Below, piece by piece: positions 34,801-50,500 of a DNA stretch of 64,000 bases. Made by a program: the position numbers. Every line of letters starts with the position of its first letter. Position 1 is the first letter of the stretch. Source of the stretch: Octopus vulgaris. Taxonomy: Eukaryota. The stretch is from NCBI GenBank assembly GCA_951406725.2, contig OX597830.1, forward strand, positions 18,166,001 to 18,230,000, read 5' to 3'.

Positions 34801-37765
34801 ATCTTATCATGTCACACCTTGACAGTTGTCTTGTCATTGGTAGCATAAACAAATTGTAAAGGACAAAAATACTAGTGTGGTGAATCCTGACAGAAGGGGG
34901 TCATAATAAATTGTCAGCATGTTGTAATGGGACTTCAAATTTCTAAACATTTACACTTCAGCATAATGTGTACAATCACACACATACACACATACAATGC
35001 ACAAACATATAGGTTTCGGGTCATAGTGGCTCGAGCTATGACTAACTCAGTAGCACCACTTGATTGTTCAAAGAAATATATTTTTATGTAGATTGTGTGT
35101 GAAAAGACAAACACAAACAGGAAATACAGAGAAGTGGAAGGGAGGGGCAGTGCAGGGTGGATGAGGAAAGGAAAGCAAGTATTTATTGTAAAAAAGACTT
35201 AAGAACTAAGCATTTAACAGTTTTTATGTCAATGTGTTAATAGTATTACAATTTTCTTTTTAAACAAACACTGCCAGAACAAAAGACAATAATACTGGTT
35301 TAATCAGACTGGATTAGGCTACTATAACTGAAAACAAAACCAAAAAAAAAATGGTAATATTTTGCATTTTGTTAAGGGTAGTGGATGAACAGAATTTAAT
35401 GGTGTTGAACAAAATAGCTTGTATTTATCTATTGGCCTCATATGGTCCGAGTTCAAAACCTGCCGAGATCAACTTTGCATTTCATCCTTAATGGTGTTAG
35501 TAAACTAAAATAGTAGTCAAGTATTGGACTTGATTTAACCCTTTAGCAATCAGATTACTCTGTCAAATGTGTTGTTCATTTATTCATATTGTTTTAAATT
35601 AATCATGCATTATCTTGTAGCTTTGGGATTTTGTTGATGTGATTGCTAATTTTTAGAATGACAGTGTAGGGTAGATTTAGTTGGTTTGAGCATAAAACAG
35701 GTAGAATACTCGGGCCCGATGTGCCCAGTTTAAATGCTAAAGGGTTAAGAAAGATGATACTCTCCTTAAAAATGTGTCCTTGTCTCAGTGATGGAGATAG
35801 ATACTTTTGTAATTTTAAAGGAATAGACTTGTGACAACTATAAATATAACATATAAAGCCTTCTTATTTCTTTATTGCCCAGAAGGGGCTAAACAGAGAG
35901 GGGACAAACAAGGACAGGCAAAGGGATTAAGTCGATTACATTGACCCCAGTATGCAACTGGTACTTAATTTATCAACCCCGAAGGATGAAAGGCAAAGTT
36001 GACCTTGGTGGAATTGTAACTCAGAACGCAGTGGTGGACAAAATACCGCTAAGCATTTTGTCCGGCATGCTAACGTTTCTGCCAGCTCTCTGGCATCAGA
36101 GGGCTCTGTGAGGATTCTTTCTTAGTTTGTCCTACCTAACAGATGGTCGCAGTATTGAAGAGAAGAGTATGAGCCAACAGACTAATATTCTAGAATTATT
36201 TAATTTCTAAACAGTTCCAATGCTAACCAATGTGCAGACTTGTACATATGCTTGTTGATTATCTCATTTTTACTTAAGCAAACACAACGATCATTATATG
36301 CTTTGCTGATGAGGTTAGAATACGGCCAAAATATGCCCAGAATTATCTCCACCCTTTACCAAAAATAATTGTTTCTAATTATTGATTACCATTGCTTTTT
36401 ATCTCACTGCATAATTATTTTAACCATATTAACTCTTCTAACACTAACACAACTAATTCTACAAGTTAACATAATTCCCTGCAGTTCCTTTATGGGGTAA
36501 AATGCAGTAATTATTTAACATTCTCTTTGAAATACCATTTGTAATCAGCACTCGTCTGTCTTGTTATCAGCTATGAAATCAAATTGAATGATTTGTTTGT
36601 ATCTTCTTGCTAGCTACACTACTAACCAATCTAGTCGTTTCTTTTTTCTAGATACTGGGTGTTTGGATTACGGTGCGATACCGTAACCAGAAAGACCCTA
36701 GAGCAAACCCCAATGCGTTTCTTTAATGGTTACCACTTGTGTTATCATTAGGTATAGTAAAGCCCCCTGAATTTTATCTGCCTCAGCTCTATGTATCTCT
36801 CTCTCTCTCTCTCTCTCTCTCCCACTCTGCCTCATCTCTGCCTCATCCTTTCTTTATTTTCCTATTGCTATTGTGTTACCAAGTCAACCATTTCTTTTTT
36901 CTGACCCATTTCTGCTTATTCACATATTTTTTATACTTTGCATATTTTATTTTATTTTGCTTATTTTATACAAACATTCCATACTTTATTACTTTGCATA
37001 TTTCATAAACCCTTCATATTTTAAATACTTCCCATATTTCATGTTCTTCCCATATTTCATGTTCTTCCCATATTTTATATACTTCCTTGTATTTTATATA
37101 AACCCTATTTTAATGCAACTAAAAAGATTTAATTTTAAACAGACATTTTATACATTTAAATTTTTATTTTTGTACATTTCTTGGGAAGAAAGATATTGTG
37201 TGTACCCTGAAACTTTTTTGACCTTTTGGAGGGCTTTTTGATGGAAACAGGGAATTCAGTTTGGGGGTAAAAAAATATTCAATGAAAGGTTTATTATAAA
37301 GTCTGGGAGAGAGGAATAATATAGTATCAACAATCTGTTAATGGACTAATGTTAACAGACTACTGTTTATCTTAATTTAGCAGTTGAAGTGACCTAGTGG
37401 ATAAGGTATTTTTTGTTGGGTTTTTTTTAGTTGAAAAGTTGAAGCTCATACTCTATGTCCAGAATAAAAACCACAAACTTCTTCACTTCCTCATTCCACT
37501 AGCAACACAATGGTATATGTTGGTAGGAAACTGTAGAGTTATGATAACCTCATTGATATAGTGATAGTTGTAATATATATAATATATATATACACACAGA
37601 GGCGCAGGAGTGGCTGTGTGGTAAGTAGCTTGCTAACCAACCACATGGTTCTGGGTTCAGTCCCACTGTGTGGCATCTTGGGCAAGTGTCTTCTGCTATA
37701 GCCCCGGGCCGACCAATGCCTTGTGAGTGGATTTGGTAGACGGAAACTGAAAGAAGCCTGTCGTA

Positions 37766-37810
<45 letters not shown>

Positions 37811-47489: not shown

Positions 47490-47521
<32 letters not shown>

Positions 47522-50500
47522 GATGGACTTCTTTAAGATTCTGTCTACCAAACTCACTCACAAGGCTTTGGTCAGCCCAAGACTATAGAAGACACTTGCC
47601 AAGGTGCCACGCTGTGGGACTAAGCAAACTTCTTACTACACAGCTTTTTTCTTTTTTTTTTTCCTAAATTCATACACACACGACTATAGTCATATGCTCG
47701 TGTATTATATCTTTACAACAATTAATTGTATATATGTTATGAAAGCTCTGGCTGAGGGGTGTCTCCACATTGGCCAGTAAGCATGAACCTTCAATTTTGA
47801 GGGGATCAGCTGTCATTGGTCAGAGGTAATGGGAGAATTCTTTGCTATTCTCAGTGCTTGCATGGGTCGGACGGAATTTGTTGAGACAGATTTCTCACCA
47901 GTTGGGCGTCCGTCTTGTTAGCAACCCTTCAAGTAAGGTAAGATTTCTCATGGCCAAACATATTTTTCACAGAAGACTGGAAATGAAGAAAATGTTTGCT
48001 TTCAACCATCATGTGATGTTAAGATAAGAATACACACCAAAGACACACATACATTAGTTTGTGTGTGTGTGATAGGCTTCTTTCAGTTTTCATCTACCAA
48101 ATCCATTAATGAAGCTCTGGCTGACCCGAGATTATAGTAGAAGAGATTTGTGAAACGTGTCGTGCCCTGGGACTGAACCCAAGACCACATGGCCAGGAAG
48201 TAAGCTCTTTAACCACACAGCCACGTCTGTGGTTGAATAGATAGATAGATAGATAGATATCATCATCATCAAAAGAAGAAGAAGAATACAAACACACACA
48301 CCCTTAATCTAGTAATGTATTCAGGACTGGTTACTGAAATATTTGTGTAGTTGGGTCCTAGATTTTCACTTTAATCCTGGTCTATTAACAATTAAAATGA
48401 GGGACTACACTTCACATTTGGCCATGGCCTTATTACCAGCTTTGCCCAATATATATCCTGGCTACATATAATTCTGTATCACATCTGTAATAATCCTGCA
48501 TTTTTACGACTACCAATGTGTTCATGCTTTTCTTCTATTAAATACGTAATTCTAATTTTGGCATTTCAGAGTTGTCTCCCCTGTCTGATATATGCTTTTC
48601 ATGCTGCAATCTTAATTAATTTTGATTAATTAAACATGTCTTGTTACTACGTTATGTTGGCACTGACTTAATTGTTTATTTTATTTTACGTGCGTATGGT
48701 GACTGCATGTCCAGAATTGTCATTATGACTGCCAAAGGTAGATTTAATTAATTTTAGCCCTCGGGTTAATGTTGCAGGAGGAATGTTGATTAATGAAAAA
48801 ATTGTTTTTGCTAATTACGTTCGCAATTTTTTGCATATTATGTTAGCAATGCATAAACTATTTGTTTTCCATGCTGATGGCATCCGTCGGTGATTTCTGT
48901 CCGGTCATTGTTCTGGGATTTACTTTCAGTGTCATTGACAAGTAAAAACAAAGTAGCAAGTTGACATAAAATGTCATAAAAACATTAAATATAGAGAGTG
49001 TGTGGTGGTGCTTGTGGTGGGGGTTCATTTTTTCAAAACTGAAGTTTCACCTTGTTGTTACCCTGAGCTCCTATTATTTTGCTCAGAAAAATAAAAATCT
49101 CCAGTGACTCCTTAAGACTTCCTTCACTAATATATTTCCTTAAGTTGGAAACTATTTCTCTACACCAGTCATGGACAAACTGCAACCAGCAGGACTTTCT
49201 GAATGACTTACCCAATGAAAAATTAACCTGGAAGTTTTTTTAGTAGAGAAGTCTGTCTGATAATGAGCCATGCCAGGCGGCGAGCTGGCAGAGACGTGCG
49301 AAATGCGTAGCCGTATTTCGTCTGCCGCTACGTTCTGAGTTCAAATTCTGCCGAGGTTACTTTGCCTTTCATCCTTTCGGGGTCGATTAAATAAGTACCT
49401 GTTACGCACTGGGGTCGATATAATCGACGAGCCATGCCAGGTGGCGAGCTGGCAGAGACGTGCGAAATGCGTAGCCGTATTTCGTCTGCCGCTACGTTCT
49501 GAGTTCAAATTCTGCCGAGGTCGACTTTGCCTTTCATCCTTTCGGGGTCGATTAAATAAGTACCAGTTACGCACTGGGGTCGATATAATCGACGAGCCAT
49601 GCCAGGCGGCGAGCTGGCAGAGACGTGCGAAATGCGTAGCCATATTTCGTCTGTCGTTACGTTCTGAGTTCAAATTCCGCTGAGGTCGACTTTGCCTTTC
49701 ATCCTTTCAGGGTCGATTAAATAAATACCAGTTACGCACTGGGGTCGATATAATCGACTTAATAACTATGTCTGTCCTTGTTTGTCCCCTCTGTATTTAG
49801 CCCCTTGTGGGTAATAAAGAAATAGATGAACCATGCCTCATGTAGCCTACTTCTCAAAAAACAAAGGGTTTCCCATGCCTGCTCTTTATAAACGACAGTT
49901 ATGGTGAGTAATGGGAAACTCAAAAGGGCAATGAAGTAAGGCCAAGCCACACACACACACACACACGGTTTTGTATTTACTGTTTATATCACATTTTATT
50001 TATATACGTTGCTTATATTGAGTACTTTTTCCTTCTTGTTTGGACATTCAAACACACACAAAGATTATAATTTAATTCTTTCTTTATTCTCTTACAGATT
50101 ATTGGTGTTTGGTTGGCACTGCGATATCGGAACCAGAAAGATCCGAGGGCAAATCCAAGTGCATTCCTATAGCCATGGAATGTTAAATGTTACTTTGAAC
50201 ATTACTCTGTCTCCCTTTCTTCCTCCTCTCAGTTTTTTTTCTTCTTTATTTTATATTTCTTTCTCATTTTTTTAAACATTTCCTCGTCAATTTCTTCTTT
50301 CTCCCAGCAATATTCTCTGCATTTTCCTGGTGTGGAGACTATTAACAACAACAATAATAACAACATAAAAATCAATGAGGATATAACATCACACATACTG
50401 TATACACACAGTTTTAATACTGTATTTGGGTTACTCTTTCTCTCTCTCTCTCTTTCTCTCTCTCTCTATTTCAACTGAAACAAAATGAAGTCTAAGAGTC

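What the first reader, a model, noticed from the sequence alone, without database searches (positions are those of the whole stretch)
36652..50172. Anciently duplicated alternative last exons of a TSPAN13/31 tetraspanin
Seen: two 75-nt terminal exons 13.4 kb apart (36652-36726 and 50098-50172). Each has a good phase-0 acceptor compatible with the single donor at 28144 and its own stop codon. They match at 19/24 aa but only 55/75 nt; 11 of the 19 conserved residues use different codons and the stops differ (TAA/TAG). I found no second copy of the upstream exons between them. Inference: synonymous divergence with conserved protein means both copies are under purifying selection, so one gene makes two isoforms. 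The isoforms would differ in the end of TM4 (LGVWITV vs IGVWLAL), the tail (NAFL vs SAFL) and the entire multi-kb 3' UTR. From memory, human TSPAN13 has WLT and TSPAN31 has WLA at the matching position, so exon duplication here may parallel the vertebrate gene duplication.
Basis: partly seen in the sequence, partly recalled or inferred. Interest (0 to 1): 0.85.

Follow-up and report, generated by a model that had tools for sequence, protein, structure and literature searches.

The report
Two ancient alternative tetraspanin end exons
An octopus tetraspanin-13/31 gene carries two very old duplicate copies of its last coding exon, apparently used as alternatives, and both versions of the protein end turn up across snails, bivalves and cephalopods.

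Summary
Exons 36652-36726 and 50098-50172 encode [24 protein letters not shown] and [24 protein letters not shown]: 19/24 aa, 55/75 nt, 11 synonymous codon differences. dN/dS is about 0.06 with synonymous sites near saturation.

The gene is Octopus tetraspanin-13. RefSeq "isoform X2" of O. sinensis ends with exon A. tblastn and a family HMM find only four tetraspanin exons in the window: 8818-9036, 27992-28144, A and B. There is no second set of upstream exons.

Exon B is 24/24 identical to the C-terminus of a bivalve protein (Solemya). A transcript-sized record that is sister to the octopus protein ends with the B type.

Among 34 mollusc proteins, 14 end with the Thr type (like A) and 20 with the Ala type (like B). 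The types are scattered over a tree that follows taxonomy, and many records are named isoform X1 or X2.

The best reading is one gene with two alternative terminal exons duplicated before the mollusc classes split.

Not shown: the 28144-to-50098 junction in this species, the 3' UTRs, and any function.

Non-human vertebrate TSPAN13 has WLT and TSPAN31 has WLA. The parallel with vertebrates is real but rests on essentially one residue.

The parts
8818..9036 (+). Coding exon of the tetraspanin-13/31 gene (residues 78-150 of the RefSeq model: TM3 and the first part of the large extracellular loop, with the CCG motif). The exons for residues 1-77 lie upstream of the window.
   Evidence: tblastn of P0002 gives E 2e-45. 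The family HMM gives E 1.2e-27. The protein search gives 99% identity to P0002. Sequence read.
27992..28144 (+). Coding exon (residues 151-201: the cysteine-rich end of the extracellular loop and the outer half of TM4, ending ...GLFFSFTE). It carries the single phase-0 donor GAG|GTAAGT that must serve both terminal exons.
   Evidence: 100% identity to P0002 over 51 aa. HMM E 1e-15. Donor matches the consensus at 8/9 positions.
36630..36651 (+). Acceptor of exon A: tctagtcgtttcttttttctag.
   Evidence: 17/20 pyrimidines.
36652..36726 (+). Terminal coding exon A (proximal, 'Thr type'): [24 protein letters not shown] plus TAA. It encodes the inner half of TM4 and the 16-residue cytoplasmic tail.
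   Evidence: Identical to the C-terminus of RefSeq tetraspanin-13 isoform X2 of O. sinensis. 22/24 identical to the Ostrea edulis X2, Patella vulgata X2 and Lottia tails.
36727..50075 (+). Interval between the two terminal exons. It would be the 3' UTR and polyadenylation region of isoform A, and intron for isoform B. No tetraspanin exon or other recognisable gene lies here, only repeats.
   Evidence: No HMM or tblastn hit above chance. Pfam finds nothing at E <= 0.01 in five long ORFs tested here, apart from two sub-threshold matches (both under gathering score) in the ORF over the 165-bp repeat. First AATAAA at 37463. Repeat copies at 40848-40918, 45598-45673 and 49265-49758.
50076..50097 (+). 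Acceptor of exon B: ttctttctttattctcttacag.
   Evidence: 18/20 pyrimidines.
50098..50172 (+). Terminal coding exon B (distal, 'Ala type'): [24 protein letters not shown] plus TAG.
   Evidence: 24/24 identical to the Solemya velum tail, 23/24 to 12 other mollusc tails, and 23/24 to P0003. HMM E 2.3e-14.

Best explanation
The window holds the 3' two-thirds of an Octopus tetraspanin-13/31 gene. Its last coding exon exists in two tandem copies 13.4 kb apart.

The single donor at 28144 is joined either to the acceptor at 36652 (exon A) or to the acceptor at 50098 (exon B). This gives two 225-residue proteins that differ at five positions. Four of these lie in the cytoplasmic-leaflet half of TM4 (L/I, I/L, T/A, V/L). 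One lies in the C-terminal tetrapeptide (NAFL or SAFL). The two mRNAs would also have different 3' UTRs.

The two exons arose by tandem exon duplication before cephalopods, gastropods and bivalves diverged, and both have been kept by purifying selection.

Shown here:
- the exon anatomy;
- the homology and selection signature;
- use of A in a RefSeq model;
- use of B-type tails in a sister transcript and in many mollusc gene models.

Inferred:
- that B is spliced to 28144 in this animal;
- that choice of A goes with polyadenylation inside the A-B interval (alternative-last-exon mode);
- that the isoforms differ in TM4 packing or lateral partners and in mRNA regulation.
For: 1. Anatomy. Four and only four tetraspanin exons lie in 64 kb, all on the + strand and in order. 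A and B have the same length and phase, and the stop codon is at the same codon position.

2. Selection. Nei-Gojobori gives pS 0.714 and pN 0.119, so dN/dS is about 0.057. Fisher p is 5e-6. No nucleotide similarity extends outside the coding part.

3. Exon A is the C-terminus of 'tetraspanin-13 isoform X2 [Octopus sinensis]'. That name implies at least one other annotated protein isoform.

4. Exon B is 24/24 identical to the Solemya tail. All 20 of 20 Ala-type mollusc tails are closer to B than to A. A decaying exon could not stay identical to a bivalve's.

5. P0003 comes from a 1411-nt contig, too short to be genomic for a gene with introns over 8 kb long. It is sister to the octopus protein with support 100 and 82% identity, and it ends with a B-type tail.

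6. In 34 mollusc proteins the tail is Thr type in 14 and Ala type in 20.
- Both types occur in Gastropoda (10 and 11) and Bivalvia (3 and 7).
- Cephalopoda: the named octopus protein is Thr type and unnamed P0003, placed there only as its sister, is Ala type (1 and 1).
- On a tree of the protein bodies, which follows taxonomy, the label needs 10 changes. Shuffled labels need 11.1 on average.
- Holding the 14 Thr-type bodies together as one clade costs 326.6 lnL, p-AU 0.0039.
- Close sisters carry opposite tails: Elysia and Plakobranchus; Biomphalaria/Bulinus and Physella/Lymnaea; Mercenaria/Ruditapes and Mactra.

7. Position 8 co-varies with position 7. Thr goes with I (10) or V (4). Ala goes with M (11), L (8) or I (1). 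In about 6 of 6 phylogenetically independent pairs the change goes the same way, p 0.031.

8. Many of these records are named isoform X1 or X2 by NCBI.

9. Two faulty gene models break exactly after ...TE: Pinctada P0033 reads on into other sequence, and Ridgeia P0042 stops there. This fits a conserved intron at that point.
Against: - No RNA evidence for the 28144-to-50098 junction in this species was available.
- No other mollusc genome could be inspected, so two tail exons in one gene are seen directly only here.
- The Thr class is loose. Of 13 Thr-type mollusc tails of 24 aa, one of which is the RefSeq model of this same gene (so 12 are independent, 4 of them closer to A), only 5 are closer to exon A than to B, 5 are equal, and 3 are closer to B.
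- Outside positions 6-8 the between-type identity (0.895) lies between the within-type values (0.869 and 0.937). The classification therefore rests on three adjacent TM residues.
- The clade tested was named after the tree had been seen.
- Arion (P0013, P0014) and Babylonia (P0005, P0016) have two separate genes, so some of the diversity is paralogy.
- Poly(A) hexamers after A are no more than expected in AT-rich DNA.
Confidence: 0.8

Rival explanations
1. The octopus duplication is cephalopod-specific or otherwise younger. The Thr and Ala tails seen in other molluscs would then come from repeated substitutions in a single terminal exon, not from a shared exon pair.
For: T and A differ by one transition. 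Only 5 of 13 Thr-type tails are closer to exon A than to B. No other mollusc locus could be inspected.
Against: - Synonymous sites between A and B are near saturation, pS 0.71.
- Positions 7 and 8 switch together in about 6 of 6 independent pairs.
- On the body tree, 10 switches would be needed among 34 sequences of an otherwise almost invariant peptide.
- A is 22/24 identical to the oyster and limpet tails but 19/24 to its own neighbour B.
- NCBI names many of the records isoform X1 or X2.
Confidence: 0.1
2. Exon B is an unused relic in this octopus, silenced recently, and only exon A is spliced.
For: The only named octopus protein retrieved uses A. No junction data were available.
Against: B has an intact frame, a stop at the homologous codon, a strong acceptor (18/20 pyrimidines, CAG), and 24/24 identity to a bivalve tail. 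The sister record P0003 uses the B type. The RefSeq name 'isoform X2' implies a second protein isoform.
Confidence: 0.06
3. The mode differs: exon A is a stop-carrying cassette exon that is spliced on to exon B, as in KRAS 4A/4B. It would not be a true last exon with its own poly(A) site, and both mRNAs would share the distal 3' UTR.
For: [quoted passage not shown] GT sites exist downstream of A.
Against: No site matching the donor consensus at 7/9 or better lies within 679 nt of the A stop. Such sites occur once per 485 nt in the window anyway. A stop that far from a downstream junction would normally invite nonsense-mediated decay (general knowledge).
Confidence: 0.12
4. Exon B belongs to a separate downstream or interleaved paralogous gene.
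For: Some molluscs do have two separate TSPAN13/31 genes: Arion P0013 and P0014, and Babylonia P0005 and P0016 on different contigs.
Against: No further tetraspanin exon lies anywhere in the 64 kb on either strand. The family HMM's next hit has E 0.98, and tblastn with two cephalopod proteins finds nothing. B needs an upstream phase-0 donor, and the only one with coding continuity is at 28144.
Confidence: 0.02

Closest known systems
Mutually exclusive homologous exons from tandem exon duplication (Abascal et al. 2015, PMC4494069; Martinez-Gomez et al. 2022, PMC9741552)
   Same: Both involve two adjacent homologous exons of equal length and phase in one gene. The isoforms are identical apart from a short homologous segment. 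The origin is very old and both copies are under purifying selection. The papers describe most such events as ancient (abstract starts in the listings; passages).
   Different: Here the duplicated exon is the terminal coding exon, with its own stop and presumably its own 3' UTR. Exclusivity therefore follows from termination, not from splice-site incompatibility. Neither paper's main text mentions tetraspanin or TSPAN (0 occurrences). Their supplements could not be read.
KRAS exons 4A/4B and the CDC42 C-terminal splice variants (PMC9882654, passages)
   Same: Homologous alternative last coding exons swap a short C-terminal, membrane-proximal segment. They are reported as conserved for over 450 million years.
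   Different: In RAS and CDC42 the swapped part carries lipidation and membrane-targeting signals. Here it is half of a transmembrane helix plus a nearly invariant tail, and only 5 of 24 residues differ. According to that paper, KRAS 4A came from another gene's exon and not from a simple tandem copy.
Vertebrate paralogues TSPAN13 and TSPAN31
   Same: They are the same family and have the same 24-residue end. Named fish TSPAN13 records have W-L-T (Paramormyrops 13b, Amia), like exon A. Named fish and frog TSPAN31 records have W-L-A (Danio, Takifugu, Hyla), like exon B. TSPAN31 records dominate the 120 best matches to a B-type tail.
   Different: In vertebrates the two tails sit in two whole genes whose bodies form two sister clades. 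In the octopus they sit in one gene. The likeness rests on one residue, because position 8 is Y in TSPAN13 and M, F or V in TSPAN31. A paper on human tetraspanin splicing lists one isoform for Tspan13 and three for Tspan31, none described as a C-terminal exon swap in the passages seen (PMC6773723).
Drosophila Tsp97E, the fly orthologue of TSPAN13
   Same: It belongs to the same family. Arthropod proteins end ...GVWLTVRYRNQ[KR][10 protein letters not shown]. Tsp97E and TSPAN13 share a U12-type intron 2 (PMC2831892 Table 2), and the octopus gene shows a U12 branch-site motif before exon 8818.
   Different: Only Thr-type tails were seen in the 4 ecdysozoan proteins fetched. Whether arthropods have a second tail exon was not testable.

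Membership tests
Tetraspanin superfamily (Pfam PF00335) | Sequence match to the family profile | tested here: met
   The RefSeq protein identical to the window's exons (P0002) and all 41 hits carry PF00335 in the precomputed column. The window exons on their own match PF00335 only below the gathering score: 18.8 and 12.5 bits against 32.1, as expected for fragments. The exons were not joined for a search.
Tetraspanin superfamily (Pfam PF00335) | Four transmembrane helices, a large extracellular loop with a CCG motif and further cysteines, and the tetraspanin fold | tested here: met
   CCG lies in exon 8818-9036 and the cysteine-rich stretch in exon 27992-28144. The AlphaFold2 model of the Solemya orthologue has pLDDT 80.3 and pTM 0.74, with helices at 5-37, 43-69, 72-98 and 183-222. 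Its 10 best PDB fold matches are all tetraspanins: PRPH2/ROM1, TSPAN15, CD9, CD53, CD81 and uroplakins, with probability 0.98 or higher. The family profile hits TSPAN7 (9w2b) at E 1.6e-11. The model is of the Solemya protein, not the octopus one.
TSPAN13/31 subfamily | Orthology to proteins named tetraspanin-13, tetraspanin-31 or Tsp97E, with the conserved end ...GLFFSFTE + [24 protein letters not shown] | tested here: met
   The best hits are named tetraspanin-13 or -31. The tail motif is shared by 52 of 52 tabulated proteins from molluscs to fish, with a few substitutions.
TSPAN13/31 subfamily | U12-type second intron (reported for fly Tsp97E and human TSPAN13) | tested here: inconclusive
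   TTCCTTAAC occurs once in the window, at 8797-8805, 12 nt before the acceptor AG of exon 8818. The 5' splice site of that intron lies outside the window. Literature: PMC2831892 Table 2.
Tandem-duplicated, alternatively used homologous exons | Two neighbouring homologous exons in one gene with the same length and phase | tested here: met
   Each exon is 75 nt in phase 0. They match at 19/24 aa. Nothing coding was detected between them.
Tandem-duplicated, alternatively used homologous exons | Each exon found in mature transcripts, never both together | tested here: inconclusive
   A is in RefSeq isoform X2. The B type is in sister record P0003 and in many mollusc models. The junction to B in this species was not seen, and the cluster members were unavailable. 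Having both in one coding sequence is impossible because A ends in a stop.
Tandem-duplicated, alternatively used homologous exons | Both copies conserved across species | tested here: met
   This holds at protein level only. There are 14 Thr-type and 20 Ala-type tails among 34 mollusc proteins, scattered over the body tree. Genomic co-occurrence in other species was not testable.
Alternative last exon with its own polyadenylation site | A cleavage and polyadenylation site used downstream of the proximal exon | not testable with these tools
   Only hexamer positions could be listed: first AATAAA at 37463 and first ATTAAA after B at 50504. That is no evidence of use.

The most novel reading that the evidence does not exclude
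The Thr-type/Ala-type pair of terminal exons goes back to the bilaterian ancestor of the TSPAN13/31 gene. After the vertebrate genome duplications each daughter gene would have kept one of them, TSPAN13 the Thr exon and TSPAN31 the Ala exon. That would be a clean case of splice-isoform separation into paralogues, with molluscs preserving the pre-duplication state.

Not excluded by the data:
- Thr tails occur in arthropods, Priapulus, Owenia, a nemertean and vertebrate TSPAN13.
- Ala tails occur in amphioxus, Saccoglossus, Lingula, two annelids and vertebrate TSPAN31.
- Several of these records are named isoform X1 to X3.

Against it:
- Outside molluscs only one residue separates the types.
- All 4 invertebrate deuterostome proteins fetched (3 species) are Ala type.
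- All 4 ecdysozoan proteins are Thr type.
Probability: 0.2. Interest if true: 0.75.

Novelty: new member of a known kind. Interest (0 to 1): 0.5.

Why it matters
Alternative exons born by tandem duplication are rare, and they are the class of splicing with the best evidence of function. This would be such a pair in a tetraspanin. It sits at the terminal exon and appears to have been kept since before the mollusc classes split.

The pair swaps only the inner half of TM4 and one tail residue in a peptide that is otherwise almost frozen from octopus to fish. That points to a specific, testable role for this part of TSPAN13/31. The one mapped interaction of TSPAN13, with CaV2.2, needs only S1-S2 (PMC3646272), so that interaction gives no clue to what the swapped part does.

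It also gives a concrete pre-duplication outgroup for asking whether vertebrate TSPAN13 and TSPAN31 divided two older isoforms between them.

The isoforms appear to be present already in RefSeq models as X1 and X2. The searches found no paper describing them.

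Tried and rejected
- Cluster look-up to see O. sinensis isoform X1 and other X1/X2 pairs. The database was switched off. Isoform pairs fall into one 90% cluster, so they stayed invisible.

- Protein search with an alignment of the two 24-aa exon peptides. 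A 40-residue C-terminal region of the Solemya database protein was used instead.

- The window's exons were searched one by one. They were never joined into a spliced model for a search. The RefSeq protein P0002 was used only in local comparisons.

- A second gene or other coding sequence between A and B. Pfam on the 10 longest ORFs gave one hit over its gathering score, a DDE_3 transposase fragment at 30794-31111, outside the interval.

- Shared flanking sequence between A and B. Only low-complexity sequence and a SINE-like repeat were found.

- Inverted copies of that repeat upstream of A (35931-36058, minus strand) and upstream of B (49265-49758, plus strand) could pair and loop out exon A. 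The family has 16 hits on both strands of the window, so such a pair is expected by chance. This was not pursued.

- A donor site after exon A, as in a KRAS4A-like cassette. No signal above background was found.

- Literature on a function of the TSPAN13 tail. Only the CaV2.2 interaction turned up, and it does not need S3-S4 or the C-terminus.

- The representative-protein search, the ESM Atlas and the bacterial genome scan were not used.

- No eukaryotic genome collection was on hand, so orthologous loci stayed unchecked.

- Supplementary tables of PMC4494069, PMC9741552 and PMC4417111, which might list TSPAN genes, could not be read.

Full report
**1. Observation**

Exon A (36652-36726) reads [24 protein letters not shown] plus TAA. 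Exon B (50098-50172) reads [24 protein letters not shown] plus TAG. They match at 55/75 nt and 19/24 aa. Eight conserved residues use the same codon, 11 use synonymous alternatives, and 5 are replaced.

Both exons follow pyrimidine-rich acceptors, 17/20 and 18/20 pyrimidines ending in AG. The upstream exon 27992-28144 ends ...FSFTE with GAG|GTAAGT in phase 0.

**2. What gene this is**

The 51-aa exon 27992-28144 is 100% identical to 'tetraspanin-13 isoform X2 [Octopus sinensis]' (P0002, 225 aa). That protein ends with exon A's peptide. The 73-aa exon 8818-9036 is 99% identical to it, with one V/E difference. The window is therefore from that species or a very close relative.

Residues 1-77 have no match in the window and must lie upstream. 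I searched the exons one by one. Exons A and B are too short for the protein search.

**3. One gene, not two**

tblastn with P0002 and with the related P0003 finds four significant places only, with word size 2 and E up to 10. A profile HMM built from 52 family members was run against all 3848 stop-to-stop ORFs of 10 aa or more on both strands. It finds the same four:

| Place | E-value |
|---|---|
| 8809-9048 | 1.2e-27 |
| 27989-28147 | 1e-15 |
| exon B | 2.3e-14 |
| exon A | 3.7e-12 |

The next hit has E 0.98. Pfam on the ten longest ORFs finds only a DDE_3 transposase fragment at 30794-31111. So exon B has no upstream exons of its own within 64 kb. The only coding donor that fits it is the one at 28144.

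**4. Selection and age from the pair itself**

Nei-Gojobori counting gives 12.5 synonymous differences on 17.5 sites (pS 0.714, near saturation). It gives 6.5 non-synonymous differences on 54.5 sites (pN 0.119). dN/dS is about 0.057 and Fisher p is 5e-6.

Nucleotide similarity stops at the exon borders. The copy is therefore old, and the protein sequence has been held.

**5. Both tail types elsewhere**

The 73-aa exon found 41 proteins. I fetched the 32 named ones plus P0003, and left out 9 unnamed ones. A 40-residue C-terminal region of the Solemya protein found 933. The best 120 were listed, and I fetched 23 named non-human ones.

Three fetched models lack the tail and were dropped: Saccostrea P0030, Pinctada P0033 and Ridgeia P0042. 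That left 52 proteins.

Among the 34 mollusc proteins, 14 have Thr at tail position 7 (W-[ILV]-T-[VI], like exon A). The other 20 have Ala (W-L-A-[LMI], like exon B). By class:

| Class | Thr type | Ala type |
|---|---|---|
| Gastropoda | 10 | 11 |
| Bivalvia | 3 | 7 |
| Cephalopoda | 1 | 1 |
| Polyplacophora | 0 | 1 |

Exon B is 24/24 identical to Solemya and 23/24 to 12 other tails. All 20 Ala-type tails are closer to B than to A. Exon A is 22/24 to Ostrea X2, Patella X2 and Lottia, against 19/24 to B.

**6. The types are not gene lineages**

A maximum-likelihood tree of the bodies, with the tails removed, used 52 rows and 208 columns. It follows taxonomy. The Thr/Ala label needs 15 changes overall, against a shuffled mean of 16.9. 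Within molluscs it needs 10, against a shuffled mean of 11.1 and a minimum of 6.

Forcing the 14 mollusc Thr-type bodies into one clade costs 326.6 log-likelihood units, p-AU 0.0039. The group was defined after I had seen the tree.

Close sisters carry opposite tails:
- P0002 and P0003;
- Elysia and Plakobranchus;
- Biomphalaria/Bulinus and Physella/Lymnaea;
- Mercenaria/Ruditapes and Mactra.

Position 8 switches together with position 7. Thr goes with I (10) or V (4), and Ala with M (11), L (8) or I (1). In about 6 of 6 independent pairs the change goes the same way, p 0.031.

Many of the records are named isoform X1 or X2. The simplest reading is that each species has both exons and each database record shows one of the two isoforms.

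**7. Results against, or weaker than they look**

- The Thr class is heterogeneous. Mean pairwise tail identity is 0.84, against 0.92 for the Ala class.
- Of 13 Thr-type tails of 24 aa, 5 are closer to A (one of them P0002, the model of this gene itself), 5 are equal, and 3 are closer to B.
- Without positions 6-8 the types are not separable.
- Arion and Babylonia have two separate genes.
- I saw no genomic locus other than this window and no transcript of this species carrying B.
- The cluster look-up that might have shown isoform X1 was switched off.

**8. Where the difference sits**

The family profile aligns the TM4 segment ...GvGlffsfteilGvwlal with TM4 of solved TSPAN7 and TSPAN15.

An AlphaFold2 model of the Solemya orthologue has pLDDT 80.3. 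Solemya's last 24 residues equal exon B. The model has one long helix from 183 to 222 and then an unstructured end of low confidence. Its ten best PDB fold matches are all tetraspanins.

The alternative exon (residues 210-233 of that protein) therefore starts in mid-TM4, right after the conserved Glu. It supplies the last eight membrane residues, the helical RYRNQ, and a flexible tail. Four of the five isoform differences lie in those eight membrane residues.

A Glu at this place in CD81 is said to contact cholesterol. This is recalled and comes from no call.

The only mapped TSPAN13 interaction, with CaV2.2, needs S1-S2 and not S3 to the C-terminus (PMC3646272, passages). The function of the swapped part is unknown. 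My proposal of altered helix packing or lateral partners, plus different 3' UTR regulation, is inference.

**9. Mode of choice**

No donor-like site (7/9 or better) lies within 679 nt after the A stop. Such sites occur about once per 485 nt anyway. Poly(A) hexamers follow both exons: 37463 after A and 50504 after B.

I favour a true alternative-last-exon arrangement over a KRAS4A-like cassette. Only 3' end data can decide.

**10. Comparison with vertebrates**

Named non-human records show TSPAN13 with WLTY (Paramormyrops 13b, Amia). They show TSPAN31 with WLAM, WLAF and WLAV (Danio, Hyla, Takifugu). TSPAN31 records dominate the listed matches to a B-type tail. The two vertebrate genes form sister clades in the body tree.

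Outside molluscs the picture is as follows:
- Thr tails: 3 arthropods, Priapulus, Owenia and Tubulanus.
- Ala tails: 3 amphioxus records, Saccoglossus, Lingula, Paralvinella and Lamellibrachia.

This allows, but does not show, a bilaterian exon pair later split between TSPAN13 and TSPAN31. Outside molluscs the distinction is one residue.

**11. Literature**

Searches for tetraspanin with 'alternative last exon' returned 8 papers, none relevant. A search for Tsp97E returned 3 papers. Searches on TSPAN13/TSPAN31 with exon, invertebrate, phylogeny or mollusc terms found no description of this exon pair.

The papers on ancient homologous alternative exons and on isoform separation after gene duplication do not mention tetraspanins in their main text. 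These are PMC4494069, PMC9741552 and PMC4417111. Their supplements were closed.

A study of human tetraspanin splicing lists one Tspan13 isoform and three Tspan31 isoforms (PMC6773723).

**12. Verdict**

The feature is real. It is a new example of a known kind: tandem-duplicated, alternatively used homologous exons. It is unusual in being the terminal exon of a tetraspanin and in its apparent age.

It seems to be annotated already as X1/X2 in RefSeq, but I found no publication describing it.

- Confidence in the main explanation: 0.8.
- Interest: 0.5.

Noticed in passing
window 8797-8805 (+), 12 nt before the acceptor AG at 8816-8817: TTCCTTAAC, the U12-type branch-site consensus, occurs once in the window, directly upstream of exon 8818-9036. 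Chance would give 0.79 occurrences anywhere in 64 kb. The fly and human orthologues (Tsp97E, TSPAN13) are listed with a U12-type intron 2 (PMC2831892 Table 2). The octopus gene probably keeps this minor-spliceosome intron. Its 5' splice site is outside the window.
   Followed up: partly
window 10597-10723 (+): A full-length match to U4 spliceosomal RNA (Rfam RF00015, 47.4 bits against a gathering score of 46, E 1.6e-07) lies inside the 19-kb intron between exons 8818-9036 and 27992-28144. Whether it is a gene or a pseudogene was not examined.
   Followed up: no
window 49265-49758 (+); other copies include 35931-36058 (-), 24645-24776 (-) and 60483-60613 (+): A 165-bp unit stands in three tandem copies (96% matches) about 340 nt upstream of exon B. 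An inverted copy lies about 600 nt upstream of exon A. The family gives 16 hits on both strands of the window, so an inverted pair around exon A is expected by chance. A role in looping out exon A is only a thought.
   Followed up: partly
window 30794-31111 (+): An ORF fragment matches the DDE_3 transposase domain (Pfam PF13358, E 1.1e-08). It is a transposon remnant in the intron between exon 27992-28144 and exon A.
   Followed up: no
window 8986-8988 (codon GTA): The window encodes Val where the O. sinensis RefSeq protein has Glu (GLQ[V/E]VNAP). This is the only difference in the 148 residues encoded in the window up to exon A. It could be a polymorphism or a sibling species.
   Followed up: no
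proteins P0033 (Pinctada imbricata, 688 aa) and P0042 (Ridgeia piscesae, 188 aa): Two deposited gene models break exactly after ...FSFTE / ...SLTE. One reads on into unrelated sequence and one stops. They look like annotation errors at the intron that precedes the alternative exons.
   Followed up: no
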